IMG/VR virus record: IMGVR_UViG_2690316068_000002
Source of the DNA: a virus
Lineage: Duplodnaviria; Heunggongvirae; Uroviricota; Caudoviricetes
Length of the DNA stretch: 64,000 bases
Strand: one strand, 5' to 3'
The notes under the pieces are model-generated. The model ran no database searches. It was not told where the DNA came from and saw only the letters and a list, made by a program, of their open reading frames with translations. The translations under genes and the position numbers were made by a program. Of the stretch, positions 2,943 to 49,116 are shown one piece after another. The first letter of the stretch is position 1. The number at the start of each line of letters is the position of its first letter.

Positions 2943-2983
2943 TTAAAAGAAAGCCTGCTTTAAACTCTCTTTAAAGCAGGCTT
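2943..2983 (-). terminator. rho-independent terminator candidate after exonuclease gene
   Basis: aaagcctgctttaaa...tttaaagcaggcttt stem followed by T-rich tract. Confidence 0.45.
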
Positions 2984-2988
2984 TTGTT

Positions 2989-6669: not shown

Positions 6670-6684
6670 AAAAACCTCACAAAG

Positions 6685-6700
6685 ATAAGTAATTACTTAT
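6685..6700. promoter_or_regulatory. promoter-proximal palindrome ATAAGTAATTACTTAT (member of recurrent operator-like family)
   Basis: Perfect 16-bp palindrome 16 nt upstream of thyA start. Confidence 0.4.
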
Positions 6701-6744
6701 TCATCGTGTGAGTTTACATTCATTGAGAGAACAAGACCAGACAG

Positions 6745-14647: not shown

Positions 14648-14876
14648 ATAACACCTCTGATACCGTGTGTTAGTTTTTGGCCTTCTTTCAATCTGAACTC
14701 CGTATGCGCCGGGAAGGATCTGCGCCTCAATACGCCTTTTCTGGTTAACCTTCCAAGATAAAACGCTACGGGATTTCCTTGTGGCGGGTAGGGCTTGTGA
14801 AACATCACCGTCTGGCCTCGTTCAAGTCTTTTCATCGTGATGGCAAAGTCTCGAAAGCTCCCATAACGACTTTGCC

Positions 14877-15962
14877 TCACACAGCCTCCGAACTCTCCGC
14901 TTCGGTGAGGATTTCCTGACACAAAATATCCAACTTGCTCAGATCAAATCCGCCGTCAGTATCGTGGACAATCTTGCAATAAGCAGATACCGACTCTCCC
15001 AGGCTATCGATTTTGCTGGTTTCCGTTGTGCTTGCTGTCCCTTCCATCATTGATGACTTACGGATGAAGTTGCACACAACACCTTTTGCACCCATTGTTT
15101 TGAGGATGTTCTGGTACTTAATGCCTTCTTCGTCGTTCTCGATTACGGCGCGGAAACGCACGTAGTTGCCGCGAATTTGGTCATCAGCAACATAATCTTC
15201 CAGGTTAATGAATTTAGGCGCACTAGTTTCGTAGTGACTAAAACTGCCGTCCGGGTTTACGATCATGTAACCAGCCAGAGAGCCAACATCCCCCCAATTT
15301 TGATGGGTCAGTGCACCGACACTGATAACTCCAGGAATGACCTCTTTGTGGTTGTGGTAATGCCCACTAAGCACGAGACGAAAGCCGATATCCTTTAACT
15401 CCTGCGCATCAATACCGACGTCAGGCATTGTTGGAATGGCTTTGTTGATGGATGTATGGATAACAACGTCATGGTTATCACCTTCTACGCTCTTACGTAA
15501 CGTTTTCAGATCGCTGATAAGCTCCGCATGATTGTTACGCCAGCTAATCAGGTGGACAGTGACATCACCAATTTTTATTGAGTGTGGGCGTTTTCCACAT
15601 ACGATTACCACGCCGATAGAACTCAGCGATGCTGCTGCGTTGGCGCTATATACTGAATCGTTGGTTTCAAGATCGTGATTACCGGCCAGCATTACTACTG
15701 TCAGATCAAGCTCGTTGATAATCCACTTGTACGTTTCAGTTACGTAATGCAGAACAGAAGGGGACACAGTTCCTCGGACGTGAAATGTATCACCGGCAAC
15801 CAACATGTACTTACAACCAGCCTTCTTCATGGCGATGGCGGCTTCTTTCGTTGCTTCCAACTGTATTTCAAGTCTGGAGTTAAGCCCCTCAGCGTTCGTC
15901 GTGGAGAACGCATCCCATTTGTGGTAGTGGCAGTCAGAAATGACGCCGTATGGCAAAGTCAT
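14877..15962 (-). CDS. sbcD: SbcD/Mre11-like metallophosphatase nuclease
   Basis: ORF 14877..16058 trimmed to ATG at 15962 (AAAGGAAAAACAC upstream); DCHYH, GDTFH and GNHD phosphoesterase motifs. Confidence 0.75.
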   Translation of the reverse strand: MTLPYGVISDCHYHKWDAFSTTNAEGLNSRLEIQLEATKEAAIAMKKAGCKYMLVAGDTFHVRGTVSPSVLHYVTETYKWIINELDLTVVMLAGNHDLETNDSVYSANAAASLSSIGVVIVCGKRPHSIKIGDVTVHLISWRNNHAELISDLKTLRKSVEGDNHDVVIHTSINKAIPTMPDVGIDAQELKDIGFRLVLSGHYHNHKEVIPGVISVGALTHQNWGDVGSLAGYMIVNPDGSFSHYETSAPKFINLEDYVADDQIRGNYVRFRAVIENDEEGIKYQNILKTMGAKGVVCNFIRKSSMMEGTASTTETSKIDSLGESVSAYCKIVHDTDGGFDLSKLDILCQEILTEAESSEAV

Positions 15963-16075
15963 GTGTTTTTCCTTTGTGGTTATTTTGATACAGATATTAA
16001 GTGTGTTTGAGAGGCGAACAATCCAGATAACACGGCCATTAAGAATGTTCACAGACACATGATTATGGCAAATTC

Positions 16076-16095
16076 ATAGGTAAGTGAATACCTAT
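16076..16095. promoter_or_regulatory. promoter-proximal palindrome ATAGGTAAGTGAATACCTAT
   Basis: Member of recurrent palindrome family; ~115 nt upstream of sbcD start. Confidence 0.4.
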
Positions 16096-16188
16096 TTTTA
16101 TGGGCAGCAAAGATTTCTAGATGTTACAAGCCACTCTATAATCGCAGTCACTTAATGATGACAACCAAACGAAAAAGGAGAACTGACG

Positions 16189-16692
16189 GTGAAACGCGTA
16201 ATTATAGGGACGATGGCCATTGCTCTGATCGGATGCGTACCAAAACCACCTCAAGATGAAAAGTCAGCTGGCGGGTACGTTGATATTTACTCCACTTCAA
16301 GCGTAGCAATTGCCCAAGACAGAGCCGACAAATTGTGTGGAAGCCATGCCTATTATGTCTCTAACGACAATGATTTAACCAAAGTCATGGGTAGATACGC
16401 GCCTTCATTCCCAAAAATCAGGTTCAACTGTGATCTTGAAATGGCCGCTTATCTGGGCAGCAAAGAGGCAAAGGAGATCAAAATGAAACGCATAGAGGAA
16501 GCCTACAAGGAGATGTACAAGGCCCAATATGAGCTGAAAGAAGTGCGCCGTAAGAACGCTGATCCGAAGAAGCTGGAGTCTTACACAGAACGCGATCCGG
16601 ACGGTACTATTCGCAGCTACAGCTTCTTGAATGGCAAGTCGTGCGAATCAATCGTGTACCCAGACGGCACGGGCAAAACGACTTGTGATTAA
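16189..16692 (+). CDS. putative lipoprotein
   Basis: Signal peptide with lipobox LIGC; plus strand amid minus-strand genes; followed by terminator. Confidence 0.6.
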   Translation: MKRVIIGTMAIALIGCVPKPPQDEKSAGGYVDIYSTSSVAIAQDRADKLCGSHAYYVSNDNDLTKVMGRYAPSFPKIRFNCDLEMAAYLGSKEAKEIKMKRIEEAYKEMYKAQYELKEVRRKNADPKKLESYTERDPDGTIRSYSFLNGKSCESIVYPDGTGKTTCD

Positions 16693-16701
16693 TTCTTCAG
16701 G

Positions 16702-16733
16702 AGCACCTCGTATGGGGTGCTTTTTATTTTGGG
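16702..16733 (+). terminator. rho-independent terminator
   Basis: AGCACC-tcgtatgg-GGTGCT followed by TTTTTATTTT. Confidence 0.6.
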
Positions 16734-16735
16734 TC

Positions 16736-17164
16736 GCGAAACAGCATGTCGGCCATTTGCGAGGATTTGACGTAGCACTTTGCCATCATCGGCTGACTAG
16801 GGTTTGATGCGATCATGTCGGACACCAGCATTGACCCATAGCCTTTTCCGCGAAGCTCTTTGACAATACTGACGGCACGGAGTTCAAGTCAAGGTGCGCC
16901 AGTCGGATCGAGTGCGGCACAGAACCAGATTAGTCCTACTTTTTGTCATCAGAACGATGCAGCAGGATGTAGATAAAATGCCCGGAGTATTGGCCCCGCT
17001 CGTTCGTCTTGATTGCCAGTCTGGTCTGCTGCTCAAAGGTTTTACCCCCCCTTTGATGTGAGGATCTCTTCGTAGAAGTGACCTTTGCGTGCGCCGTCCT
17101 CGAACTCAGCCATGATAAAAGGCATGTCTGTCACAGTTGCTGCCCTTGAATAAAATTCACTCAT
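16736..17164 (-). pseudogene. disrupted GNAT-family N-acetyltransferase
   Basis: Minus-strand fragments in three frames: MSEFYSRAATVTDMPFIMAEFEDGARKGHFYEEILTSKGG*, FEQQTRLAIKTNERGQYSGHFIYILLHRSDDKK*, ELRAVSIVKELRGKGYGSMLVSDMIASNPSQ...; the RGKGYGSML block is GNAT motif A; no intact ORF. Confidence 0.45.
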
Positions 17165-17239
17165 GTATTAATCCTAAAAGCCCTCAGTGTCTTTCTAATG
17201 CACCATATTTTATGCCTCGGTTAAACCCTGAGATTACGT

Positions 17240-17884
17240 TTAAAACGTCTCAGTGGGCTTTTTACGCGCTGCGTTTATGCTTATGACGCCAGCTTTTGGA
17301 CGTGGGTCAACAAGGTTAAGCTCTTCTTCACTGTGGTATTCGAGGTCGAACTCACGTTTTACATGTCTGATGTAGATTGCGGTGAGCAGGCTATCTTTGG
17401 TCAGAAAGTGTCCGTAGGATTTGCGGATCACTTCTTCTACCTTCTCGATTTTCTCACCACCCATACAGAGATGATTAAACCGGCTGTGTTTCCGCAACAT
17501 TTCGTCTACTGGGCCTGAGTAAACCTTGTCTACTTTCCCAAAACGGATGATTTTCCCTGTGTCTGCGGATACGAGGCAAATCAGCTTGTCTGGTGATAAA
17601 CGATCTCGCCACGTCACACCTGAACGGAGTGTGTTGAAGTAGGGAGCATCCAATCCGATGATCGGTTTACGAAATGCGAGTAATGGAACGTACCTGATGC
17701 AACTGTTTAAATGAAAATTCACACCAGCCTTATCAAGTTTAATTCTGGTTTCGTAGATCGGGCACTTCGCCGCTATACCGCAGATGTCACAAAGCAACTT
17801 CTGCTTATTCAGGTTGGAATTCGATTCGATAGTGTAGGAGCCGTCTTCAAGACGACGAACCCAGCGCGTGCGTTTTAGATCCAT
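17240..17884 (-). CDS. hypothetical protein
   Basis: 214 aa ORF divergent from the replicon. Confidence 0.5.
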   Translation of the reverse strand: MDLKRTRWVRRLEDGSYTIESNSNLNKQKLLCDICGIAAKCPIYETRIKLDKAGVNFHLNSCIRYVPLLAFRKPIIGLDAPYFNTLRSGVTWRDRLSPDKLICLVSADTGKIIRFGKVDKVYSGPVDEMLRKHSRFNHLCMGGEKIEKVEEVIRKSYGHFLTKDSLLTAIYIRHVKREFDLEYHSEEELNLVDPRPKAGVISINAARKKPTETF

Positions 17885-17971
17885 ATGTCATTTTTCTGTG
17901 ATTGTTAGCCGAGGCAACGATAACCCACCAGGTGCGCCGAAGGTAGTAAATGCCTGTTTTAATTATTCACA

Positions 17972-18044
17972 TTATCCACAGGATAGATCCTAATAAAGAG
18001 ATCCATAGATAGATCCTTGTATAGATCAAATAAGATCCCCGATC
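17972..18044. promoter_or_regulatory. origin-associated DnaA box plus GATC cluster
   Basis: TTATCCACA (17972-17980) matches DnaA box consensus; six GATC sites at about 17986, 18000, 18012, 18024, 18034, 18041. Confidence 0.6.
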
Positions 18045-18084
18045 GCTGTAAGCCGCGCCACGACTGGTCTGAAGCCATGTTCAT

Positions 18085-18186
18085 GTATGCTGTCAGCGGT
18101 AATTGATAGTCTGTCAGCGGTTCACCGTATGCTGCCAACTGTTTTTGGTATTCTGTCAGCGGCAAATCAAGTATGCTGTCAGCGGT
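18085..18186. repeat. iteron array upstream of repA (5 copies)
   Basis: GTATGCTGTCAGCGGT-like 16-mers at about 18085, 18107, 18127 (degenerate), 18148, 18171. Confidence 0.8.
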
Positions 18187-18206
18187 TGAATGACAAAGGT
18201 GTCCAC

Positions 18207-19301
18207 ATGTCCACAAAAAATAAAAAAGGTAAAAATAACAAAGAAGTAGAAGATAACATCGACAACTTTGAAGAAGGTTCCCTTGAATTGTACACAGGGG
18301 AACTTGTCCCTAATAGCAACAATACAGTCCAACCAATTGCGTTGATGCGACTGGGGTTGTTCGTCCCCACGCTTAAGGGAACAAAATACAGTAAACGTAA
18401 CAAGCCAAATGAGATCGATGCTTCAAAGGAGCTTGTCCAGCTCGAAGTAGCCCGTTCTGAAGGCTATTCCGATATCAAGATAACCGGCCCTCGCCTGGAC
18501 ATGGATCATGATTTCAAAACGTGGGTGGGCGTTGTGCGTTCGCTGGCAGAATACGGCGAACCTAATGGTCGTGTCGAGTTAAGCATCACGAAATTTGCGA
18601 AGTTTTGTGGCTATCCATCGTCACAGATCCGCAAAACACTCCGCGACCGGCTTACAAACAGTCTTTTGAAGATCATGCGTACAACTCTGTCTTTCCAGAG
18701 AACGTATGAAGAAAAGAACGTCGACGGCTCTAACAAGATCTCGCTTCTGATGGTGCACCTCATCAATAGCGTGGACTACAACGAGCAGAAAGATACGGTG
18801 GTGTTCTATGCAGAACCGAAGCTGGCCGAACTATATCGCTTTGACCATAAGGTTCTTTTGCAGTTAAAGGTTATCAATAAGCTACCACGCAAAGAAACAG
18901 CACAGGCTCTGTACACCTTCATCGAAAGTCTTCCAACCAAGCCTGCGCCGGTATCGCTTGCTCGATTGCGTGCGCGACTCAATTTGAGTAGCAGGAATGT
19001 CAGCTCGCAGAATCAGACTATACGTAACGGCTTAAAAGCTCTCCAAGATTTGGGCTATCTCGAATACAGCGAGATTAAGCGTGGGCGGTCGATCTATATC
19101 CAGATTCACAGCCGCAATCCAAAACTCAAAGTCGCACCGCCAAAACCTGAAGACATCGAACCCAAAAAACCAGATGAGAAAGCTGGGGAAATTGATGCCA
19201 AACAGAACATTATCAACAAGATAACCGAACTTTCGCAGAATTTGACGCCTGAAAATATCAAGATGATTGAGATCCTTTCCAATAGTCTCAAACTGCTTTG
19301 A
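18207..19301 (+). CDS. repA: plasmid-type replication initiator (RepA-like)
   Basis: ORF 18087..19301 trimmed to ATG at 18207 (AAAGG RBS; longer ORF would run through the iterons); assignment rests on flanking iterons, DnaA box and GATC cluster, not on recognised protein motifs. Confidence 0.6.
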   Translation: MSTKNKKGKNNKEVEDNIDNFEEGSLELYTGELVPNSNNTVQPIALMRLGLFVPTLKGTKYSKRNKPNEIDASKELVQLEVARSEGYSDIKITGPRLDMDHDFKTWVGVVRSLAEYGEPNGRVELSITKFAKFCGYPSSQIRKTLRDRLTNSLLKIMRTTLSFQRTYEEKNVDGSNKISLLMVHLINSVDYNEQKDTVVFYAEPKLAELYRFDHKVLLQLKVINKLPRKETAQALYTFIESLPTKPAPVSLARLRARLNLSSRNVSSQNQTIRNGLKALQDLGYLEYSEIKRGRSIYIQIHSRNPKLKVAPPKPEDIEPKKPDEKAGEIDAKQNIINKITELSQNLTPENIKMIEILSNSLKLL

Positions 19302-19418
19302 TATGCTGTCAGCGGTGAAATGTATGCTATCAGCGGCTATTTTTCTGAAAAGTATGCTGTGAACGGTTAAAGATATGCTACCAGCGGTATAGTGAGATAA
19401 ACGTATGCTGTGAGCGGT
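19301..19418. repeat. iteron array downstream of repA, cluster 1 (5 copies)
   Basis: 16-mers (G/A)TATGCT(G/A)(T/C)(C/G)A(G/A)CGG(T/C) at about 19301, 19322, 19342, 19373, 19403. Confidence 0.8.
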
Positions 19419-19577
19419 AAATCATCTATCACCACTCAATGCTCTGGCATACCTCCCCAGTGGTTACTAACCTCGAAGAGTGCATTCCATATAGGTTTGC
19501 GCTCACTAACATTCTATTGCCGTTGCGCTGATTGCTTGTAGTGAAAGGCATTTATTGCCTGCTGCTCCCTGATAGAA

Positions 19578-19832
19578 CGTATGCTGTCAGCGGTGTTTTA
19601 TTGAGGAATTTTTGTTTGGATATGCTATCAGCGGTAATTAATGGTATATGTCAGACCTTCGTATGCTGCCAGCGGTAATTTTGTTCTGGTTATACCCATA
19701 CCGGTACACATTATTCATGCAATGTCTTAAGTATGCTGTCAGCGGTAAAAAATCGAGTAAAGTATGCTGTGAGCGGTGAGATAAACTCTCGATATGCTAT
19801 CAGCGGTAATTGATTGTGTATGCTGTCAGCGG
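19578..19832. repeat. iteron array downstream of repA, cluster 2 (7 copies)
   Basis: Same 16-mer family at about 19578, 19619, 19660, 19730, 19761, 19791, 19817. Confidence 0.8.
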
Positions 19833-19845
19833 TGACGACTATGAA

Positions 19846-19867
19846 ATATGACTGCGGCACGTGCCGC
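19846..19867. repeat. perfect 22-bp palindrome GACTGCGGCACGTGCCGCAGTC
   Basis: Seen directly; sits at end of iteron field between convergent units; hairpin or protein-binding site. Confidence 0.6.
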
Positions 19868-19880
19868 AGTCAGTTTGCAT

Positions 19881-31400: not shown

Positions 31401-32013
31401 GCTCTATTTTCAGTGCGCTGGCTACTTTCATCGCTCGGACGTTAATCTGGTCGTAGAATGGGGTAGGGTGCGGATAAACCACGCTATAGAAGTTGTCTTT
31501 CCCGCCCGCTGTAATCAGTGAGCTTATGATTTTTGCAAAATCGTTGCGTTGGAACACGCTACCGATGTCGGAAGTGAGCAGGATGATGTTGCCTTTGGCA
31601 TATGTAGAAACCAACTGTTCGAGCGAGAGACGCGGTACAAAGTAGAACTGTTCTCGTGTGTTGGCCACCGTCATTAGTTCGCAGATGTCGCGATATCCTT
31701 GCTCATTTTTAATTAGAGCGGTAAACGAGTAGTTACGTCCCCGCTCTAATGATTCCATACATCTCATAGATTCTTTAGCAAGTTTAGCCCGGTGCTCGTA
31801 TGTGGGATCATCAACGATATTTAGTTTCACACCACAAATAACCGCCATGTCGTCACCAGCGGCACGTTGTAGTGGAATAACGCTCGCAATATTCATGCTA
31901 TCTGCTGAAATTACAGCGGTGTAGCCAGCTTCTCTGGCAATCTTCACCGCGTTTTCTGCTTTTAGAGCCGACTCCCCAAGTGAGAAGTCAGTTCGAACCA
32001 TCAGTGCCTTCAT
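28495..32013 (-). CDS. dnaE: DNA polymerase III alpha-like replicative polymerase (DnaE family)
   Basis: 1172 aa; block GYFLMVRDLMNHSRETGIPVGPGRGSSAGSLVAWCIGITNVDPIRHGLLFERFINPER matches the DnaE palm-domain signature; N-terminal PHP-like region. Confidence 0.85.
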   Translation of the reverse strand: MKALMVRTDFSLGESALKAENAVKIAREAGYTAVISADSMNIASVIPLQRAAGDDMAVICGVKLNIVDDPTYEHRAKLAKESMRCMESLERGRNYSFTALIKNEQGYRDICELMTVANTREQFYFVPRLSLEQLVSTYAKGNIILLTSDIGSVFQRNDFAKIISSLITAGGKDNFYSVVYPHPTPFYDQINVRAMKVASALKIEPVAFYPAYYESIDDADIKDIAHMVTNNIKIDQPHRLRIPHQRDNAINGRRHLLEALKAFSVRMDVPVTAAMASTTQDSIIDACTWRWHELPPALPKMADDEPATLMKLAVAGLRKRLTTKEFGYTPPASENRVYVERLKYEMNTLTRLGFCGYFLMVRDLMNHSRETGIPVGPGRGSSAGSLVAWCIGITNVDPIRHGLLFERFINPERLDLPDADLDFSQARRHEVIEYLNERYGEDYVAGIPNFTYLGAASALRDTARIYGVESADMAVSKELKNVEDDSLPLEELREQLASLDKYATKYPDAFNAACKLQSLMRGFGRHAAGMIVAGVPLTERTPVERRGDARCIAFDKRYCEAMGLIKLDVLGLATLDLLDSAKRYIKENTGEDINLDAISLEDRKVLDGFAAGYTQGVFQLESGPMRKLLKDLGGGIEPMSFKTVVATTALFRPGPIQSGMLDDYVSVAKGFMTPESLHPVLDELTAETNGVILYQEQTMNATRLLAGFTMAEADGVRSAIGKKNMEKMKSMGEKFIVQAQAGWIDVELEDGTTQRIHRAEHFKCEDGTLKTVEEALEHGAKLPINAVRVTASHPGLSEMKAKEIWTAFEKNGAYQFNKSHSVAYSLISYQSMWLKTHYPAEFFAAALTILGEDKHQGLVKDALTYGIRVLPPDVNVSSNRIEIRTLEDGSQVLYAPFSAVKGCSENGCQAIMRAREKVGGKFESLAQFEEAVEKRACNSRVRESLQKVGAFASIEPGSLPATDPERLRDQAELMGNLVIDAVKASRPFEMNPKRSAEINVLMTRMAAEMGLGDELIRPNIGIKPKIMIILDNANGNDARTGYFMENGYDDFKAKLLTAGDLRMGDLYVTGVCKKVKDKEKDYTKDEIGQFTDFMREEINLVRPTYILTCGSRSTALFNNKSKPSDLIGRKEYFPELDATVFYGFNPNILYFRPEEGERLEAILADIAETINK

Positions 32014-35731: not shown

Positions 35732-35944
35732 TTAACAGATTCTGACGGCTAAAGACCAGGAGCCGGTATTGAGAAGCGTGAAGCGTTTGTTGTTAAGTTC
35801 GAATATAAAGCCAGTTGTGTCATTCACACCAACCTGAATCTGCTCATTCGGTAGATCGGTGAGGATGTCAGCTACACACTCATCAGCTAATTTCTGTACG
35901 TGTCCGATCTCAAGAGCGATTAGGCTGGAAATAGTGGTGTTCAT
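35732..35944 (-). CDS. hypothetical protein
   Basis: 70 aa ORF. Confidence 0.4.
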   Translation of the reverse strand: MNTTISSLIALEIGHVQKLADECVADILTDLPNEQIQVGVNDTTGFIFELNNKRFTLLNTGSWSLAVRIC

Positions 35945-36122
35945 TCAATCAATCCATTCTAACTTATACTATGGTAAGGAATACTACTAAAATTTGTATC
36001 AATACTGAATACATTCATATCATATGCAAGTTGATTTTCTTACCTGTTTTGGGCTAATTTTTCTCCGTGCAATGGCCTTTAACCGGTCTTTTAAGTGCCT
36101 ATCGAAAAAAATGATAATAGCT

Positions 36123-36164
36123 TTACAACCCTAACCTTTGATGTAATATCGGTAAGCACTTACC
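36123..36164 (+). promoter_or_regulatory. sigma70-like promoter with operator-like palindrome at the predicted start site
   Basis: TTTACA-16 nt-TAATAT followed directly by GGTAAGCACTTACC (36151-36164), upstream of the HTH regulator. Confidence 0.5.
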
Positions 36165-36195
36165 AGAGAGAATTGAACGCGCAAAGGTTGTAACC

Positions 36196-36582
36196 ATGTC
36201 TGATAACAAGATTGAATTTATAGAAAGTCGCTACGCTGCTTTTATCGCAGGGTTGATTGAATCCTCACCTATGAGCCAGGCCCAGATAGCCAAAACAATT
36301 GGGTATAAAAACGCCAACAACCTTTCTTTAATTAAAAGCGGCAAAATTCCTTTGCCTATCGATAAGGTTCGTCCGCTGGCGCTGGCACTGGGCATTGAGC
36401 CAAGTCGTCTTATGATGATGGTGCTGGAAGAACGCCAACCCGAACTCGCAGCATTTTTATACAAAGAAGGCACTGCTCCTCTTAACGAGGACGAAAAACA
36501 GGTTCTTGCTGCATATAACGAGCGATTCGGTAAAGAGAAAGGCGCATCACAAAAGGTTGTTGAGGCCATAAAGTCTCTATGA
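36196..36582 (+). CDS. helix-turn-helix (XRE-like) transcriptional regulator
   Basis: HTH-like segment SQAQIAKTIGYKNANNLSLIKSGK; 128 aa; convergent with recombinase gene. Confidence 0.6.
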   Translation: MSDNKIEFIESRYAAFIAGLIESSPMSQAQIAKTIGYKNANNLSLIKSGKIPLPIDKVRPLALALGIEPSRLMMMVLEERQPELAAFLYKEGTAPLNEDEKQVLAAYNERFGKEKGASQKVVEAIKSL

Positions 36583-37680
36583 AAAATTTACACGAATAAG
36601 CTCTGTTGATAGACGATCTCCCTTAAATTTGTGGTCAATTTCGTCTAAATCCGGTTGCTCTACGATTGATGCGATGTACGTCGAGAAACTTTCTAAGGCG
36701 TCTCGCATCTCGTCCATATAATCGTGCCGGTCGTAGACCCGATCTATCCCCTCAAGACTGTGGTTCATGATTTTACGTGATACCTCCTGGCTTATGCCTA
36801 ATGCTGGGAAGTAACTACGCGCAGTACGGCGCAAATCTCGGGGTGTAAATGGCTCAAGCTCCATCAGTTCTGGTCGTTCCAGAATACGACGTAATGCCTG
36901 GGCTATTGCCACTTTAGACATAGGAAGGTCTTTCCCGATTTTTTTATTCGAAGGCACGAGCCACTGGCTGTCTTTACCATATTCGAACAACTCTTCAATA
37001 CAAGTGCGCATTAATGAGCTTAAAGGCAGAGAATGCTCACGGGCAGATTTGTTCCTCTTGCCTTGATTCCAAACCCCACGCTTAAGATTGAACTCACTTT
37101 TTTTAGCCCGCAGTACTTCGTCAGGTCGTCTTGCGGATACAAGACATAGCCTGGCCGCCCATTTTGTACCAGCACACACATTGAAGTAGTCCCATATATT
37201 CCAGAACACCCATACCTCTGCGTCGGTCAGCTTCCGCTCGCGAGGTGTGGGCTTTGCGCCACCGGCAACTTTGTTAAGTGACATATCGTTTAACGGTGAC
37301 ACGTCTATCATCCCCTGGAAGGCGCACCAGCTAAGGAACTGCTTCATCAGAGAGAAAACGCGGCGGCCCATAACAATTTTGCCATCCAGTATTAGTGGGT
37401 TGACCAGTTGGTTCACCATGAACCTATTAATGTCACTTACTTTTACATCGGCAATGTGCGGCAAAACATGTATCAAAATACAATGAACAGCGATCTCTGG
37501 CCGACGTCTGGTTATCAGCAGAGATAAGCGAGTGAATAACATGAATGCGTCCGAGAATCTCATGTCATTGCTGACCTGGGAGATCATAACGGCCTGCATT
37601 TGAGATGCTCTTTCGAGATACTCTATCGCCTCTTTTGAGGTGTTCTCCGCAGCGCGTGCTCTGTCAAAGCTATTTTTCAT
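36577..37680 (-). CDS. tyrosine site-specific recombinase (phage integrase family)
   Basis: C-terminal catalytic domain with RPDEVL (Arg I), box II variant FTPRDLRRTA, and HSLEGIDRVYDRHDY containing candidate Tyr nucleophile. Confidence 0.8.
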   Translation of the reverse strand: MKNSFDRARAAENTSKEAIEYLERASQMQAVMISQVSNDMRFSDAFMLFTRLSLLITRRRPEIAVHCILIHVLPHIADVKVSDINRFMVNQLVNPLILDGKIVMGRRVFSLMKQFLSWCAFQGMIDVSPLNDMSLNKVAGGAKPTPRERKLTDAEVWVFWNIWDYFNVCAGTKWAARLCLVSARRPDEVLRAKKSEFNLKRGVWNQGKRNKSAREHSLPLSSLMRTCIEELFEYGKDSQWLVPSNKKIGKDLPMSKVAIAQALRRILERPELMELEPFTPRDLRRTARSYFPALGISQEVSRKIMNHSLEGIDRVYDRHDYMDEMRDALESFSTYIASIVEQPDLDEIDHKFKGDRLSTELIRVNFS

Positions 37681-37778
37681 ATGACAATCACCGAGTTACG
37701 CCGATGCACTGTATAAGTAAACAGTATATTAGGCATAGATTCTTATAGGATCAAGAGTAAAAGTAACTCATTTTCAGC

Positions 37779-37811
37779 AATGATTCCATACATAGTAGGT
37801 ATGGAATCATT
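37779..37811. other. candidate recombination site: perfect 13-7-13 inverted repeat
   Basis: AATGATTCCATAC-atagtag-GTATGGAATCATT, ~100 bp upstream of the recombinase gene; architecture like loxP/dif/FRT. Confidence 0.55.
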
Positions 37812-37892
37812 TAGACGTCGTTTTTTAAATTTTAAGGTAAACAGGAGTGAGTTTGGTGGGGAATAAAAAACGGCTCCTGTGAGCCGTTAAAA

Positions 37893-38330: not shown

Positions 38331-38469
38331 TTAATGTGTTTGGTTACTAAGCAGAAATGGCTTTGTGAGGTTGACACATTAGAAACGGCAAGACAGCTTT
38401 AAACTAGCTGAAATGGTATGGTCGATTAGGTATCATTCAGTTTCAAAATTAACCAAAGACACTGATAAA

Positions 38470-39702
38470 ATGCCTGTTTTGTTAATCCTCATACTTGGGA
38501 CAGTGATGATTATTTTCTGGGATACCGTCAAGGAAAACGTAGAGGTCATAGGTACACTTGCCACTTCACTTGCATTTTTCGCCACAGCATGGGCCGCTTA
38601 CGAGGCAAGGCATAGTGCAAAGGCAGCAATGAGGGCCACTAGGCTGACGGCAGCTTCACTCCTTGAAATGAAAAAAGCCTCTTTTAAGGAATGGTACGGC
38701 ATATTACTTGAACAGCATAATAGATTACTTGAGGATGTTAACAAGACCTTGCAGGATGATAGGGAACTTAATGCAAAACTGGGAACGAATCTCATCAAGG
38801 CTATTTATTACCATGTAACCAAAAACTCCGTTTACATTAAATATATTAACCACATAGTTTTAATTCTTGATTATTTAGATAAAGACTTCTATTCGCCGTC
38901 ATCAGCCGATTATGAAAAGAGAGCTTACATAGAACAGCTGCGCAACAGCATTAGTCCTAATGTAAGCCTGCTGATAGCTACATTCGGCCTTAATATTGAC
39001 ACTAATAAAACCTATGACGCAAAGAGGCTTTACAGCCTGCTAAGCAAGTATAACTTCTTCGAAGGCCAACTTTTTTTTGAAGAAGCAATATCGAAAGTTC
39101 ATTATTTGGACTCTTATGCTGCTGTGATATTTGATAACGAATACCGAAAAGATGTAGAGTTTTATGTTGAAGAAATGGTTCGAGGTCGTGAGACCCCTAA
39201 AATCGATTCAAGATATCGTCATTTAAGGGCTACGTTCGCAATTCTGTGGTCTTACAACAACCCCTGCCGACAACATTTGCTTCAAAGATTTAATGACCTA
39301 CCTATGCATATGCGAAACAGCATTGAGCTGAGGATGGAAAATGCAGCCGATAAAGTAGCTGAGTTCAACTCTTTGTTACTTGGTTTTATAGGCTGGGAGC
39401 TTAGAATCGCAGGTAATAAAGTGAGGGTGATCAAGGATGAAAAACATTTAAAGAGGCTAATAAAACTCAACGATAAGTATCCAATTCCCCCCCGAGAGAA
39501 AGGTATTCTGTTAACCAATGGTTTCACCAATAGATTCGCTGATGAGATTAAAAATAGTCTGTCTATGTATAAGTTAGAAAATGCCTATTTAGCACTCAAC
39601 TCTAATCAACACAAAGAAAAGGTGATTGATGAAATTGTTGTTGAAGTTGAGAAAATTGTCGATAAATTTAAAGCAGAACTTGATTCTTTGGATTTCAACT
39701 AA
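38470..39702 (+). CDS. low-GC membrane-anchored protein of unknown function
   Basis: ORF 38413..39702; two N-terminal TM helices; K/N/I/Y-rich composition unlike neighbours; plus strand; followed by terminator. Confidence 0.55.
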   Translation: MPVLLILILGTVMIIFWDTVKENVEVIGTLATSLAFFATAWAAYEARHSAKAAMRATRLTAASLLEMKKASFKEWYGILLEQHNRLLEDVNKTLQDDRELNAKLGTNLIKAIYYHVTKNSVYIKYINHIVLILDYLDKDFYSPSSADYEKRAYIEQLRNSISPNVSLLIATFGLNIDTNKTYDAKRLYSLLSKYNFFEGQLFFEEAISKVHYLDSYAAVIFDNEYRKDVEFYVEEMVRGRETPKIDSRYRHLRATFAILWSYNNPCRQHLLQRFNDLPMHMRNSIELRMENAADKVAEFNSLLLGFIGWELRIAGNKVRVIKDEKHLKRLIKLNDKYPIPPREKGILLTNGFTNRFADEIKNSLSMYKLENAYLALNSNQHKEKVIDEIVVEVEKIVDKFKAELDSLDFN

Positions 39703-39881: not shown

Positions 39882-39968
39882 TGGCGGAGAGTAATGGAAT
39901 CGAACCATCATCGCTTGCGCAATGGGACGGTTTTCAAGACCGCTTGAGCACCATGCTCCCTACTCTCC
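39882..39968 (-). tRNA. tRNA-Ser (anticodon UGA), type II with long variable arm
   Basis: Minus-strand GGAGAGT...CTTGAAA...GGTTCGATTCC...ACTCTCCGCCA; 7-bp acceptor stem, T-loop TTCGATT, anticodon loop CUUGAAA; D-arm atypical. Confidence 0.6.
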
Positions 39969-40181
39969 AGTTGTTGTGGTGCCGGGGGCTTCCCGGTGTC
40001 CTTTGGCTGGTTATCCACCGTGGACGGAGCCAATAGTCATCACAAAGGATCAATATAACCATTTCCCCGCGTGCGCTTAGCCGCATTCACCACAACGAAA
40101 AGAGCACTGTATGACGTTTGCACGGACTTACGCTTAAAACAGGGCAGTCTCGGCGGTTCTCAATGCTCTTTCCTGTTGTGT

Positions 40182-40428: not shown

Positions 40429-41206
40429 AATTCGGCACTGCCAGTATTTATTACTCAACAGTGCCAATCGCGACGGTTTAGTTTCTGCCAGGAAACGCAC
40501 CGCTACTTGCACTTTTCGTTAGTGCCAGACGCTTTCGACTTCGCTCAATAGTAGAAGGCAAAATCTTTAAGTAGATGATGTTTCTGAGGACAGCACCTAC
40601 TTTGTAATTTATACAATGTGATGTATGGAATCATTTGTTGTGAAAACAGGCACCAATGGCAACAGTGGTTAAACCTACACAACAATCCTGTCTTCACAAC
40701 GTTGAGGCCACTACTCCGATTGAATGTTTGCCCAACATGTTACATATCAACGCTCGCCGGTATCTCTGTGAATAGAACCTTAGAATTGATAAAAATGTAA
40801 TGGCCTCAACGTTGTGTGCTGGCTAACCATACCAGCCGGGCTACGTCGCCGCTTTTTAACCCAGTATAAACGACATAATTGAACAAAATGACGTAACAGG
40901 ATGGGCGGTCAGTGGCTAAGAATCCGGGAGTCATATGGAGTTGAAAATATACCAACCGCCCATTCTGTTACTTCATCGGAGGGAACATGAATGTTCCCTC
41001 CTGCGTTCTGCAATCACACTCGCTCAGTGTGTCCCATTTCGGTAACGAGGCTGGAAACTGACCTCGCTGGTGTTTGGCTTATTAGGCTACTGCCAGATAG
41101 ACTTCTTCGTTTGCACTTGTATTTAAGTTCAAACAGTCGCGTCTCAACGAAAACAAAGTCATCTTATACATAAAAGATAAGTAAGTAAATACTTATTATT
41201 GTATTT

Positions 41207-41497
41207 TTATTCGGTTGTGACTTTTTTGATCAAGGCCACTCTACGACTAGGTGTTCTTGTGATGGTGGCAGTGAATCGTTTCGCTTGGATAGTAATGGTT
41301 TCGTTCTCCTTAAGTTGCCCGTAGCGAGTTTCCACCAGGGTGCCAAGACGCCACAGACCATCATCGATACGTTTATGACTAGCAAATTTAATCAGCAACA
41401 GTTTTACGACTAACTGACCTACGTAAAAGGCGAATGCGACTCCGGCCGCTAAGCAATAGGTGGCCAACCACCAGTCCCAAGAAGTTAAATTGCTCAT
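41207..41497 (-). CDS. hypothetical membrane protein
   Basis: 96 aa; N-terminal TM helix WWLATYCLAAGVAFAFYVGQLVV. Confidence 0.5.
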   Translation of the reverse strand: MSNLTSWDWWLATYCLAAGVAFAFYVGQLVVKLLLIKFASHKRIDDGLWRLGTLVETRYGQLKENETITIQAKRFTATITRTPSRRVALIKKVTTE

Positions 41498-41646
41498 TTT
41501 CTAACCTTTGTTTCATGAACTACCCGATACACACGCTTTCCGATGCACAGTGTTTTGGTTTTAAGTTCCTGCTTAATTAAATCACGACAGATGCCGAAGC
41601 CGATAAGGAAGCCACTCATAAAAGCTAATGAGATGTATGGAATCAT
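41494..41646 (-). CDS. small membrane protein (50 aa)
   Basis: Below ORF cutoff, found manually: MIPYISLAFMSGFLIGFGICRDLIKQELK...; AGGAG RBS; ATGA overlap with downstream gene. Confidence 0.35.
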   Translation of the reverse strand: MIPYISLAFMSGFLIGFGICRDLIKQELKTKTLCIGKRVYRVVHETKVRK

Positions 41647-41858
41647 TTTAACACTCCTGATTCTACTAATTGCTGTAGCAATACTTTCCCTTTATCAGTT
41701 AACTGGTAGTTGGCCGAACACTTCGTTTCAGAAACGTTTGCAACCAACCCTAACCGCTCTAACTTAGCCCGCGTTTTAGGCTTCCAGTACTCAGGGAACT
41801 CTGACCACTTACTGATTTCATGAAGCGTTTCCTTCTCCCGCTTACTTAATACGATCAT
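41643..41858 (-). CDS. hypothetical protein
   Basis: 71 aa ORF. Confidence 0.4.
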   Translation of the reverse strand: MIVLSKREKETLHEISKWSEFPEYWKPKTRAKLERLGLVANVSETKCSANYQLTDKGKVLLQQLVESGVLK

Positions 41859-48312: not shown

Positions 48313-49116
48313 CTAGTATCCAAGAAAATCAGTATCTTTCTCTAATCTTATTTTTTCCAGCTTATACGATCCTGGAGGGCACTTCATTTTGTAGATTTCG
48401 ATACCTGAATCAAATAGTTGATGAACATAATTTTGAAGTTGACTGCTAGCCTTACAACCTATTGTTATTTCCTTAATTAAGGATTTATCAAATAATTTCA
48501 CGCCACAATTCTCGGTTACGATTCTAACCTCCTCTTCATATTCCCAGACATCGCTTTTATTTAGGCAAAGAGCCGCTGCAATCTCTTTATCTGAGTCGGT
48601 AAAAAAATTTACAACCGGAACATCAGAGGAATATTTGACCTCACCGCGAACAAAAAAACCATCATCAAACGCATTTATAAAACCATCATCAAATCCGATG
48701 CAAAAACCAGAGTGAGAATGCGCATAATGCGACCACATAAGATAATTATCTGGTCTTTTTGTCAAACAAATAACTCCCCGACACTGCAGAAAAGTTGTTC
48801 TAATCATATAGTTATCAAAACTGCGACTATGTTCTGTTTGACTCAATAACCAGCGTTCAAATTCATCATTGTGATGATTAGGCCAAAGCTCAAAAAATCT
48901 TTTCTTAATGGCGTCTATATCAGCATCATAATCAAAATTAACTTTAAACTCGGCAGGATCGTTGAAATCATTCGGACGAGTTGCTCGAATTTTCCCATCT
49001 TCTAAGTAATACTTTAAATACTTTATTGTGTCTTCCGGGACGCTACTTCCAACATATTTGTAAAGCATAAATATACCTTTTAAGAGAAGGCGTCTAATCA
49101 CGCCTTCTCTTATCAA
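48313..49116 (-). CDS. hypothetical protein, DUF2971-like pattern, low GC
   Basis: 267 aa; YLKYYL...NDFNDPAEF...W-HYA-H-G-C-GF resembles DUF2971 as I recall it; AT-rich codon usage. Confidence 0.45.
   Translation of the reverse strand: MIREGVIRRLLLKGIFMLYKYVGSSVPEDTIKYLKYYLEDGKIRATRPNDFNDPAEFKVNFDYDADIDAIKKRFFELWPNHHNDEFERWLLSQTEHSRSFDNYMIRTTFLQCRGVICLTKRPDNYLMWSHYAHSHSGFCIGFDDGFINAFDDGFFVRGEVKYSSDVPVVNFFTDSDKEIAAALCLNKSDVWEYEEEVRIVTENCGVKLFDKSLIKEITIGCKASSQLQNYVHQLFDSGIEIYKMKCPPGSYKLEKIRLEKDTDFLGY

What the first reader, a model, noticed from the sequence alone, without database searches (positions are those of the whole stretch)
36577..37811. Tyrosine recombinase with an adjacent perfect 13-7-13 inverted-repeat site (lox/dif-like)
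About 100 bp upstream of a 367-aa tyrosine recombinase gene sits AATGATTCCATAC-atagtag-GTATGGAATCATT, two perfect 13-bp arms around a 7-bp spacer. This is the canonical core-site architecture for tyrosine recombinases (loxP, dif, FRT). In a phage that carries a plasmid replicon, it is a candidate dimer-resolution or cyclisation module like P1 Cre/loxP. Single-arm copies GTATGGAATCATTT recur at about 40623-40636 and 41635-41648, which could be pseudo-sites or borders of an inserted segment carrying the glutaredoxin gene, the low-GC membrane protein and the tRNAs.
Basis: partly seen in the sequence, partly recalled or inferred. Interest (0 to 1): 0.7.

Follow-up and report, generated by a model that had tools for sequence, protein, structure and literature searches.

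The report
Lox-like recombination site beside phage-plasmid recombinase
A perfect 33-bp palindrome next to a tyrosine recombinase gene in an SSU5/pHCM2-type phage-plasmid is almost certainly that enzyme's own recombination site, probably used to keep the plasmid monomeric; the pair is conserved from E. coli to the plague plasmid pMT1 and to plant-bacterium megaplasmids but I found no description of it.

Summary
AATGATTCCATAC-ATAGTAG-GTATGGAATCATT lies at 37779-37811, 98 nt upstream of a 367-aa tyrosine recombinase gene (36577-37680, minus strand), and it is not chance.

The window is an SSU5/pHCM2-type phage-plasmid.

- **Conservation:** the site is found at the same place in every relative examined, including pMT1 of Yersinia pestis. 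The core GATTCCATAC is invariant, and the spacer is always 7 bp but free in sequence.
- **Link to Int:** homologues 47-52% identical on Pantoea, Rahnella and Erwinia megaplasmids have no phage genes or HTH gene nearby. They carry the same architecture, with arms changed symmetrically to GACTCCAGAC. The site therefore travels with Int.
- **Int itself:** it keeps its catalytic residues, lacks an arm-binding domain and is the only recombinase annotated on the replicon.
- **Location:** the module is never chromosomal (0 of 255 places in E. coli).
- **Mosaicism:** sequence similarity between related elements breaks exactly at the outer edge of the arm.

Best reading: a Cre/loxP-like multimer-resolution module that also acts as a crossover point for exchanging the adjacent cargo.

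They are not borders of an insert, and their role is unexplained.

The parts
36577..37680 (-). int: 367-aa tyrosine recombinase. It has a helical N-terminal extension (about 1-70), a core-binding domain and a catalytic domain. Inferred catalytic residues are R185, K211, R281/R284, H307 and Y316.
37779..37811 (.). Core site: arms at 37779-37791 and 37799-37811 (AATGATTCCATAC and its complement) around the 7-bp spacer at 37792-37798 (ATAGTAG; CTACTAT in the int-sense orientation).
   Evidence: Conserved upstream of int in all relatives, with an invariant 10-nt core and 15 different 7-bp spacers. Co-varied arms (GACTCCAGAC) in megaplasmids and in Xenorhabdus and Providencia.
37812..37834 (-). Int-distal flank element. 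It is semi-conserved: YARAWTT plus an A-tract, then a G/C-rich stretch, filling the 23 nt next to the outer arm. In this window it reads TTAAAATTTAAAAAACGACGTCTA in the int-sense orientation. It is a possible accessory or degenerate third binding element.
   Evidence: Position-specific conservation across 50 distinct left flanks that otherwise carry unrelated cargo. Also recognisable in Pantoea L134 and Erwinia L140. Lost in pMT1.
37726..37754 (-). Inferred int promoter: -35 TTGATC (37749-37754) and -10 TAATAT (37726-37731), 17-nt spacing, 24 nt downstream of the palindrome.
   Evidence: Both hexamers are conserved in E. coli, Yersinia, Salmonella, Enterobacter and Klebsiella lineages. The match is only 8 of 12 to consensus and was not flagged by the scan, so this is an inference from conservation.
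37707..37726 (.). LexA-type SOS box, CACTGTATAAGTAAACAGTA (16 of 20 to TACTGTATATATATACAGTA). It abuts the -10 hexamer and covers the likely transcription start.
   Evidence: It is the only strong box in the window. CTGT-N8-ACAG is kept while the N8 varies in most GATTCCATAC-class lineages; the box is absent in L007, L009 and the megaplasmids.
41632..41647 (-). Isolated half-site A (AATGATTCCATACATC read on the minus strand). It overlaps the TGA stop of the 71-aa ORF 41643-41858 and the ATG of the 50-aa ORF 41494-41646, which begins MIPYI.
   Evidence: Conserved in position in pMT1, pHCM2, Klebsiella, Enterobacter and Cronobacter JZ38. The ORFs are annotated in relatives.
40620..40635 (-). Isolated half-site B (AATGATTCCATACATC on the minus strand), intergenic, about 190 nt upstream of the tRNA-Asn/Tyr/Thr/Ser cluster.
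   Evidence: Conserved in position in all relatives except pMT1. It is not a homology breakpoint.
31748..31763 (+). Isolated half-site E (AATGATTCCATACATC on the plus strand), antisense inside dnaE, where it encodes C-M-E-S of DnaE.
   Evidence: The synonymous positions of TGT ATG GAA TCA are invariant in about 30 distinct sequences, while neighbouring codons and residues vary. Lineages without the motif have an unrelated peptide at this position.
37062..37074 (+). Degenerate half-site D inside int (CTTGATTCCAAAC here, one core mismatch). Relatives have an exact GATTCCATACATC at this position, antisense at about +616 of int.
   Evidence: It encodes V-W-N of Int and is absent in L007 and the megaplasmids.

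Best explanation
The 33-bp palindrome is the cognate core recombination site of the adjacent tyrosine recombinase. Each 13-bp arm binds one Int protomer. Cleavage and strand exchange occur at the two ends of the 7-bp spacer, as in Cre/loxP or XerH/difH, without arm-type sites.

Its main job is to convert plasmid multimers of this never-integrating, low-copy phage-plasmid back to monomers. Multimers arise by homologous recombination or during replication.

Because the site is simple and shared between related elements, it also serves as a crossover point between co-resident elements. That would explain why the variable cargo region ends exactly at the site.

In this lineage int is transcribed from a promoter overlapped by a LexA box, so Int supply should rise during the SOS response, when recombination is stimulated and the phage is induced.

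**Shown:** the anatomy, the conservation, the co-variation with Int, the intact catalytic residues, the absence of an arm-binding domain, the exclusively plasmid location and the sharp mosaic boundary.

**Inferred:** binding, catalysis, the resolution function, the LexA control and any role of the dispersed half-sites.
For: 1. The palindrome is 60-116 bp from int in 124 of 133 loci from plasmids, phages, viral contigs and genomes. The 10-nt core is invariant, the spacer length is fixed at 7 bp, and there are 15 spacer sequences.
2. Int homologues at 47-52% identity on 326-572-kb Pantoea, Rahnella and Erwinia megaplasmids have no phage genes and no neighbouring HTH gene. They carry TGACTCCAGAC-N7-GTCTGGAGTCA 84-175 bp upstream. 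Xenorhabdus and Providencia elements have the same arms, and Photorhabdus has hybrid arms. Both arms change together.
3. R185, R284, R285 and Y316 are invariant, and K211 and H307 nearly so, across 41 sequences. Their spacing matches lambda Int R212/K235/H308/R311/H333/Y342 (my own knowledge).
5. Int is the only site-specific recombinase annotated on the 110.6-kb replicon.
6. None of 255 occurrences in 5,426 complete E. coli genomes is chromosomal. PMC9600943 reports the same for SSU5-type elements.
7. Mosaic boundary: among elements with at least 97% identical int-side flanks, different cargo-side flanks lose identity within 2-4 nt of the core in 59 of 90 comparisons. Many E. coli hits at 97-99.9% identity end at window 37811-37814. 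The chimera L062 switches parent within about 15 nt of the site. The pMT1 caf1 island ends at the arm edge.
8. Reduced, non-phage derivatives keep the module: pMT1, a 33.8-kb Photorhabdus Rep3 plasmid and a 51.6-kb Cronobacter plasmid.
9. Cyrano int is transcribed in the lysogen and rises about 25-fold inside macrophages.
Against: - No experiment shows that Int binds or recombines the site, and no multimer or stability phenotype is known.
- A sharp boundary could also arise from cargo turnover by illegitimate recombination, combined with selection against damage to an essential site.
- A 33-bp identical stretch could occasionally support homologous exchange, especially as the element encodes its own recombinase and exonuclease.
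- Only one clean left-identical/right-divergent chimera lineage was found.
- The closest structural relatives are integrative enzymes (lambda Int, Tn1549 Int), not dedicated resolvases.
- Integrase-fold proteins that act purely as repressors exist (MrpR, SroF).
- The dispersed half-sites have no place in a simple Cre-like model.
- SOS control is not what one would naively expect of a housekeeping resolvase, and it is absent from some lineages.
Confidence: 0.6

Rival explanations
1. SOS-controlled cargo-exchange platform as the primary function (integron-like in logic, not in ancestry). Int recombines the site with the same site on co-resident elements or on excised circles, so the block next to the site is swapped or captured. 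Multimer resolution is secondary.
For: - The DNA directly beyond the int-distal arm differs in every lineage: grxA terminator, caf1 capsule operon, YafO toxin, colicin immunity, HEPN/Toprim, RelE/ParE and colicin DNase.
- Identity is lost within a few nt of the arm.
- The same left-flank types are re-assorted with different right flanks among lineages that share the spacer CTATTAA.
- A LexA box sits on the int promoter, as in integrons.
Against: - There is only one full site per replicon, and no attC-like partner sites or cassette array.
- The variable region is a mosaic with conserved islets (tRNAs, grxA), not a string of cassettes.
- The megaplasmid copies sit in stable, unrelated contexts and lack a LexA box.
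- Exchange could be a by-product of a resolution site.
Confidence: 0.15
2. The palindrome is a transcriptional operator. It is bound by Int acting only as a regulator, by the neighbouring HTH protein, or by a host factor, and it controls int and/or the divergent cargo genes without recombination.
For: - The palindrome lies 24 nt upstream of the inferred -35 of int.
- Isolated copies dispersed over 10 kb recall the scattered asymmetric operators of P1 C1 (my own knowledge).
- Integrase-fold repressors exist.
- In Cyrano a very highly expressed gene diverges from the site.
Against: - The site persists with int on megaplasmids that lack the HTH gene.
- The HTH gene's own control region carries a different repeat (GGTAAG/CTTACC) and no GATTCCATAC.
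- The distance from the site to the int start varies from 60 to 175 nt, so it is not tied to promoter geometry.
- The catalytic Tyr and Arg residues are invariant, unlike domesticated repressors.
- A divergent gene is present in only some lineages.
Confidence: 0.12
3. attP-type site for integration into a chromosome, or into another replicon, by a lambda/P4-like integrase.
For: - The nearest sequence outgroup is the P4/CP4-57-type integrases, and the best structural matches are integrative enzymes.
- The gene is annotated as an integrase everywhere.
- A few large records (138-198 kb) may be cointegrates.
Against: - None of 255 places is chromosomal in E. coli, and the literature reports these elements as exclusively extrachromosomal (PMC9600943).
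- There is no arm-binding domain.
- There is no cluster of arm-type sites around the core.
- The site is not tRNA-derived.
- Outside this element family, the only exact matches to the palindrome pattern among 185,579 species genomes were 3 Amycolatopsis loci, about what chance predicts.
Confidence: 0.04
4. A structural nucleic-acid element: an RNA hairpin (terminator or processing site) or a DNA cruciform, unrelated to Int.
For: - The predicted hairpin energy is -16.5 kcal/mol on either strand.
- Symmetric arm changes preserve pairing.
- The spacer is found in both orientations in close lineages, as happens with hairpin loops.
Against: - The arm sequence itself is invariant over lineages whose flanks are saturated with change, not merely its pairing potential.
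- The same sequence recurs as conserved unpaired half-sites.
- No T-run adjoins the stem, unlike the two true terminator palindromes in the window.
- There is no Rfam match.
- The element is strictly linked to int in unrelated genomic contexts.
Confidence: 0.03

Closest known systems
P1 Cre/loxP (phage-plasmid multimer resolution and cyclisation)
   Same: - A phage-plasmid encodes one tyrosine recombinase.
- The minimal site is two perfect 13-bp inverted arms around a short asymmetric spacer.
- No arm-type sites or arm-binding domain.
- The element is never integrated.
- The site lies near the recombinase gene.
   Different: - The spacer is 7 bp, not 8.
- There is a conserved flank element next to one arm.
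- The promoter is LexA-controlled.
- There are additional dispersed half-sites.
- No experiment has been done.
Tn4430 TnpI/IRS and plasmid F ResD/rfsF (tyrosine-recombinase resolution sites just upstream of the recombinase gene)
   Same: - The site lies in the 5' region of the recombinase gene.
- The core is an inverted repeat.
- In TnpI/IRS, extra copies of the same binding motif beside the core act as accessory sites (my own knowledge). The YARAWTT element 23 nt from the arm could play that part.
   Different: - The flank element is only a weak, degenerate match to an arm.
- The clear extra copies lie 0.7-6 kb away, not adjacent.
- Homology to TnpI or ResD was not tested.
XerH/difH and XerS/difSL (single-recombinase Xer systems on near-palindromic sites)
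   Different: Those are chromosomal systems located at the replication terminus and activated by FtsK. Here the system is plasmid-borne and self-encoded, about 19 kb from repA. FtsK dependence is unknown.
Integron IntI/attI
   Same: The integrase gene has a LexA box on its promoter, the recombination site lies directly upstream, and the variable cargo begins at the site.
P4/CP4-57-type and lambda-type integrases
   Same: These are the closest in sequence (at most 34% identity) and in fold for the core-binding and catalytic domains.
   Different: Those enzymes have an N-terminal arm-binding domain and integrate at tRNA or other attB sites. This family replaces that domain with about 70 helical residues and is found only on plasmids.

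Membership tests
Tyrosine recombinase superfamily (PF00589) | Catalytic-domain fold and the R-K-H/R-R-H-Y active-site constellation | tested here: met
   [not shown]
Simple (arm-independent) recombinase/core-site systems, Cre/loxP type | Site made of two inverted 11-13-bp recombinase-binding elements flanking a 6-8-bp spacer | tested here: met
   A perfect 13-7-13 repeat. The spacer length is invariant at 7 bp in all loci.
Simple (arm-independent) recombinase/core-site systems, Cre/loxP type | Recombinase lacks an arm-type DNA-binding domain | tested here: met
   No PF13356 domain, whereas the outgroup has it. The AlphaFold2 N-terminus is all-helical.
Simple (arm-independent) recombinase/core-site systems, Cre/loxP type | The recombinase binds and recombines the site without accessory factors | not testable with these tools
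   This needs EMSA and a two-site deletion assay. Co-variation of the arms with Int is indirect support only.
Cre family proper | Sequence or close structural homology to Cre | tested here: not met
   [not shown]
Plasmid multimer-resolution system | Plasmid-borne, with one site per replicon and retention when other functions are lost | tested here: met
   One palindrome in the 110.6-kb replicon. None of 255 places is chromosomal. The module is retained in pMT1, a 33.8-kb Photorhabdus plasmid and the megaplasmids.
Plasmid multimer-resolution system | Loss of the recombinase or site causes multimer accumulation and instability in rec-positive hosts | not testable with these tools
   A genetic experiment is required.
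Lambda/P4-type integrative systems (attP x attB) | N-terminal arm-binding domain and arm-type sites clustered around a weak core | tested here: not met
   The extra motif copies lie 0.7-6 kb away and have the same sequence as the core arms.
Lambda/P4-type integrative systems (attP x attB) | Integrated prophage forms exist | tested here: not met
   None of 255 places is on a chromosome in 5,426 E. coli genomes. PMC9600943 reports the same.
Integron | IntI-type integrase with attC-flanked cassettes | tested here: not met
   [not shown]
Integron | LexA box on the integrase promoter | tested here: met
   The box matches 16 of 20 positions and abuts the -10 hexamer. It is conserved in most GATTCCATAC-class lineages and absent in L007, L009 and the megaplasmids.
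Integrase-fold transcriptional repressors (SPbeta MrpR, phi3T SroF) | Catalytic residues lost; the protein acts only as a DNA-binding regulator | tested here: not met
   [not shown]
Xer/dif or cer | Site with distinct XerC and XerD arms, used by host XerCD | tested here: not met
   The two arms are identical and carry their own adjacent recombinase. The comparison with the dif consensus was from memory only.

The most novel reading that the evidence does not exclude
Int and its site form an SOS-inducible, self-encoded recombination hub that does more than resolve dimers. It drives exchange of the adjacent accessory block between co-resident phage-plasmids; the F1 capsule island of the plague plasmid abuts the arm. 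The conserved, inward-pointing half-sites (in dnaE, in int, and ahead of the tRNA and small-gene block) would be monomer Int-binding sites that couple Int level to replication or early-gene control, or that impose topological selectivity. No such arrangement is known for tyrosine recombinases.
Probability: 0.2. Interest if true: 0.75.

Novelty: new member of a known kind. Interest (0 to 1): 0.5.

Why it matters
- **Scope.** The module sits on medically prominent replicons: pMT1 of Yersinia pestis, pHCM2 of Salmonella Typhi, SSU5-type phage-plasmids in about 5% of complete E. coli genomes and in many Klebsiella, and the large Pantoea plasmids. I found no description of its site in the searchable literature.
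- **What it would explain.** If confirmed, it accounts for how these low-copy phage-plasmids stay monomeric. It also accounts for why their accessory-gene hotspot ends at one precise nucleotide position.
- **Practical use.** It would supply a compact recombinase/33-bp-site pair with two natural specificity classes (GATTCCATAC and GACTCCAGAC) and many natural spacer variants. Those are candidate orthogonal tools alongside Cre/lox and Flp/FRT.
- **Open questions.** The LexA control and the conserved half-sites raise a tractable question about links between SOS induction, recombination and phage-plasmid gene control.

Tried and rejected
- **Half-sites as borders of an inserted segment.** Rejected. 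Homology to pHCM2 and Enterobacter elements runs through site B, and site A sits on a gene junction.
- **Half-sites as full recombination sites with a degenerate second arm (Rci/sfx-like).** No second arm is recognisable. The spacer-side sequences beyond ATC are not conserved between sites or lineages.
- **Half-sites as relics of past insertions.** This is incompatible with sites D and E lying inside conserved genes, and with the shared ATC extension.
- **Half-sites co-varying with arm class.** The Xenorhabdus and Providencia elements (GACTCCAGAC arms) have no isolated copies within 10 kb on either side, so that test could not be made.
- **The motif as a promoter.** No consistent -10 or -35 geometry was found around the isolated copies.
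- **The motif as a leader mini-ORF (MIPYI...).** There is a Shine-Dalgarno sequence only at site A. Several copies are followed by early stop codons, but the dnaE coding constraint partly explains this. Left as a curiosity.
- **The neighbouring HTH protein as the binder.** Rejected.
- **The left-flank element as an IHF site or an outward promoter.** No convincing match by eye.
- **Sequence search of solved structures with Int.** No hit.
- **Literature.** Searches for the motif string returned only unrelated primers. The 1998 pMT1 sequence paper is not held.
- **Amycolatopsis hits.** The three hits to the palindrome pattern have no int nearby. About one chance match is expected in 596 Gb, and the three are probably one shared locus. 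Not examined further.
Full report
**What is there.** The window is part of an SSU5/pHCM2-type phage-plasmid. It is 100% identical over the tested 3 kb to E. coli plasmid pRHB31-C19_2 (CP057251.1, 110.6 kb) and about 98% identical to phage-plasmid Cyrano (pLF82).

ORF 36577-37680 on the minus strand encodes a 367-aa tyrosine recombinase (Pfam PF00589). The perfect inverted repeat AATGATTCCATAC-ATAGTAG-GTATGGAATCATT lies 98 nt upstream, at 37779-37811.

Composition-matched randomisations of the window never produced a perfect palindrome with 13-nt arms. The window has three; the other two are G+C-richer stems followed by T-runs at gene ends, which makes them ordinary terminators.

**Conservation.** I fetched orthologous loci from pMT1 of Yersinia pestis, pHCM2 of Salmonella Typhi, Klebsiella, Enterobacter, Cronobacter and K. 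oxytoca. Int identity in these ranges from 86% down to 56%. All carry the palindrome upstream of int.

The 10-nt core GATTCCATAC is invariant. The outer arm bases change symmetrically in both arms: TGTGATT.../...AATCACA and TTGATT.../...AATCAA. The spacer is always 7 bp and A+T-rich, but its sequence is free.

A pattern scan for GATTCCATAC-N7-GTATGGAATC found 114 viral contigs and 10 species genomes. In 124 of the 133 loci then held, int lies 60-116 bp from the site. The rest are loci truncated next to the site, or three Amycolatopsis hits that are about what chance predicts. Fifteen different spacers occur. In two close lineage pairs the same spacer is found in both orientations relative to int.

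**The site travels with Int, not with the phage.** This was the discriminating test. Int homologues of 47-52% identity sit on 326-572-kb megaplasmids of Pantoea, Rahnella and Erwinia, among siderophore-receptor, pagP, ovoA or MFS genes. They have no phage genes and no adjacent HTH gene. Each has TGACTCCAGAC-N7-GTCTGGAGTCA 84-175 bp upstream of int.

Two arm positions have changed, in both arms, and the 7-bp A+T-rich spacer is kept. Xenorhabdus and Providencia elements that keep the phage-plasmid synteny use these same arms. A 33.8-kb Photorhabdus Rep3 plasmid has hybrid arms.

The neighbouring HTH gene (36196-36582; Cyrano's "putative repressor") is therefore not needed for the site to persist. 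Its own control region carries a different repeat, GGTAAG/CTTACC, and no GATTCCATAC.

**The protein.** In a 41-sequence alignment R185, R284, R285 and Y316 are invariant, and K211 and H307 are nearly so. Their spacing matches the lambda Int active site; that comparison rests on my own knowledge.

The family is a tight Enterobacterales clade. Its nearest outgroup, at no more than 34% identity, is the longer P4/CP4-57-type integrases. Those carry the PF13356 arm-binding domain, which this family lacks.

Int is the only site-specific recombinase annotated on the replicon. PLSDB gene tables are incomplete, so this is not absolute.

**Lifestyle.** In 5,426 complete E. coli genomes the module occurs in 252 genomes at 255 places, none of them on a chromosome. 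This agrees with the published statement that SSU5-type elements are exclusively extrachromosomal (PMC9600943). Reduced derivatives that have lost phage functions keep the module.

**A sharp mosaic boundary.** The DNA beyond the int-distal arm is different cargo in every lineage:
- the grxA terminator in this window;
- the caf1 F1-capsule operon in pMT1;
- YafO toxin, colicin immunity, HEPN/Toprim, RelE/ParE or colicin DNase in other lineages.

Among elements whose int-side 300 nt are at least 97% identical, different cargo-side classes lose identity within 2-4 nt of the core in 59 of 90 comparisons. In the E. coli genome search, many hits at 97-99.9% identity end at query 1235-1238, which is window 37811-37814, the outer edge of the arm.

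One clean chimera exists. L062 is 95-100% identical to five elements on the cargo side but only 83% on the int side, where it matches L116 instead. The switch is within about 15 nt of the site. The same cargo-side flank types recur with different int-side types among lineages sharing the spacer CTATTAA. In pMT1 the caf1 island ends exactly at the arm edge.

Each distinct cargo-side flank carries its own version of a semi-conserved element that fills the 23 nt next to the arm: YARAWTT, an A-tract and a G/C-rich stretch (50 distinct flanks). These flanks therefore look like diverged homologues brought in by exchange at the site, not random junctions. This is the strongest indirect sign that the site is recombinationally active in nature. 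Selection against damage to an essential site remains an alternative.

**Regulation.** Between the palindrome and the int ATG lie three features:
- a conserved TTGATC-17-TAATAT promoter (37754-37726 on the minus strand). It matches consensus at only 8 of 12 positions and was not flagged by the scan, so it is inferred from conservation;
- directly after it, CACTGTATAAGTAAACAGTA (37707-37726), which matches the LexA consensus at 16 of 20 positions;
- conserved CTGT and ACAG ends of that box, with a variable centre, in most GATTCCATAC-class lineages.

The box is the only strong one in the window. It is absent in L007, L009 and the megaplasmids.

Cyrano is induced 39-fold by ciprofloxacin (PMC9928086). 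In its published transcriptome, int is expressed in the lysogen at about half the level of the HTH gene. It rises from log2 5.6 in LB to 10.3 inside macrophages at 6 h. That LexA is responsible is my inference.

**The isolated half-sites.** Across the whole replicon the exact core occurs only five times, all within 10 kb of int. The three isolated copies share the extension ATC (AATGATTCCATACATC), which the palindrome arms lack. They are conserved in position:
- **Site A (41632-47)** overlaps the stop/start junction of two small conserved genes.
- **Site B (40620-35)** lies ahead of the tRNA cluster.
- **Site E (31748-63)** lies antisense in dnaE.
- **Site D**, a fourth copy, lies antisense inside int in most relatives. 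It is degenerate here (37062-74).

Site E encodes C-M-E-S in an otherwise variable DnaE segment. Its synonymous positions never vary in about 30 distinct sequences, and lineages without the motif have an unrelated peptide there. That points to selection on the DNA.

All copies read toward the palindrome. With four sites this happens by chance about 1 time in 8 to 16.

The half-sites are not homology breakpoints. They have no recognisable second arm. They are also absent from the megaplasmids and from the Xenorhabdus and Providencia elements. They are therefore a clade-specific addition whose function I cannot establish. Monomeric Int binding is the most economical guess.

**Verdict.** The "borders of an insert" idea is not.

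The system works like Cre/loxP or a single-recombinase Xer/dif system, but it is not a member of those families by sequence or by closest fold. I rate it a new member of a known kind. The unusual extras are SOS control, a conserved flank element, conserved dispersed half-sites and a role as a precise mosaic junction next to, among other things, the plague capsule operon.

I found no description of the site in the library searched. That library lacks most subscription journals.

Noticed in passing
window 37707-37726: A LexA-type SOS box (16 of 20 to consensus) abuts the -10 hexamer of the inferred int promoter. It is conserved in most relatives, and it is the only strong box in the 64-kb window.
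   Followed up: partly
CP057251.1 80306-80325 (L143 34512-34531), outside the window: A near-perfect LexA box, TACTGTATATACATACAGTA (19 of 20), lies directly upstream of a 129-aa gene annotated as 'DNA repair protein' (HVY93_24220). This is a candidate SOS-controlled antirepressor or induction gene of the phage-plasmid.
   Followed up: no
window 36577-36582 and 36340-36356: int and the HTH 'putative repressor' gene converge and overlap by 6 bp, with no terminator between them. A terminator-like hairpin on the int strand lies about 220 nt inside the HTH gene. SOS-induced int transcription would therefore run antisense into the repressor gene, which could cause transcriptional interference.
   Followed up: no
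window 35945-36195: The divergent control region between the HTH gene and a 70-aa ORF (35732-35944) contains repeated GGTAAG/CTTACC motifs, including GGTAAGCACTTACC near 36151-36164. These are likely operators of the HTH repressor. In the Cyrano transcriptome the 70-aa gene rises about 90-fold inside macrophages.
   Followed up: partly
L002 (pMT1, NC_004835) 14113-19869: In the plague plasmid, the caf1R-caf1M-caf1A-caf1 F1 capsule island replaces the whole variable region, including half-site B and the flank element. It ends exactly at the outer edge of the palindrome arm.
   Followed up: partly
loci L014, L068, L033, L070, L133 versus L002, L008: The 7-bp spacer occurs in both orientations relative to int within close lineages (CTATTAA/TTAATAG and CTATAGA/TCTATAG). 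This may be hairpin-loop flipping or inversion of the whole symmetric site.
   Followed up: no
window 41646, 40634 and 31749, and equivalents in relatives: Every isolated half-site begins with ATG ATT CCA TAC ATC (MIPYI). At site A this is the real start of a conserved 50-aa ORF (PHROG 6302) with a GGAG ribosome-binding site. At several other copies a stop codon follows within 1-2 codons.
   Followed up: partly
window 38413-39702 (+): A 429-aa ORF with low G+C (38% against 46% for the window) has no Pfam match. It is on the opposite strand to its neighbours and is absent from most relatives, so it is probably recently acquired cargo.
   Followed up: no
window 39946-40114 (-): A sub-threshold Rfam match to the sRNA STnc100 (41.3 bits against a gathering score of 47) lies between tRNA-Ser and tRNA-Thr.
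   Followed up: no
window 2950-2984 and 49081-49112: These are the two other long perfect palindromes in the window (15-5-15 and 13-6-13). Both are G+C-richer stems followed by T-runs at gene ends, so they look like intrinsic terminators.
   Followed up: partly
L004 25868-28929 and 34271-36613; L141 14481-16802: Relatives carry homing-endonuclease insertions in core replication genes: a NUMOD4-HNH gene splitting dnaE, a LAGLIDADG domain in the recombinase gene, and a LAGLIDADG domain in the AAA_5 ATPase of the Xenorhabdus element.
   Followed up: no
L016, L018, L019 (Amycolatopsis spp.): Exact matches to GATTCCATAC-N7-GTATGGAATC occur in three Amycolatopsis genomes with no int homologue nearby. 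About one chance match is expected in the 596-Gb collection, and the three are probably one conserved locus.
   Followed up: no
L006 (Cyrano) 6179-6733: CYRAN_43, a 184-aa gene that diverges from the palindrome in Cyrano and is absent from this window, is reported at 723-fold above the prophage background in the lysogen (PMC9928086).
   Followed up: no
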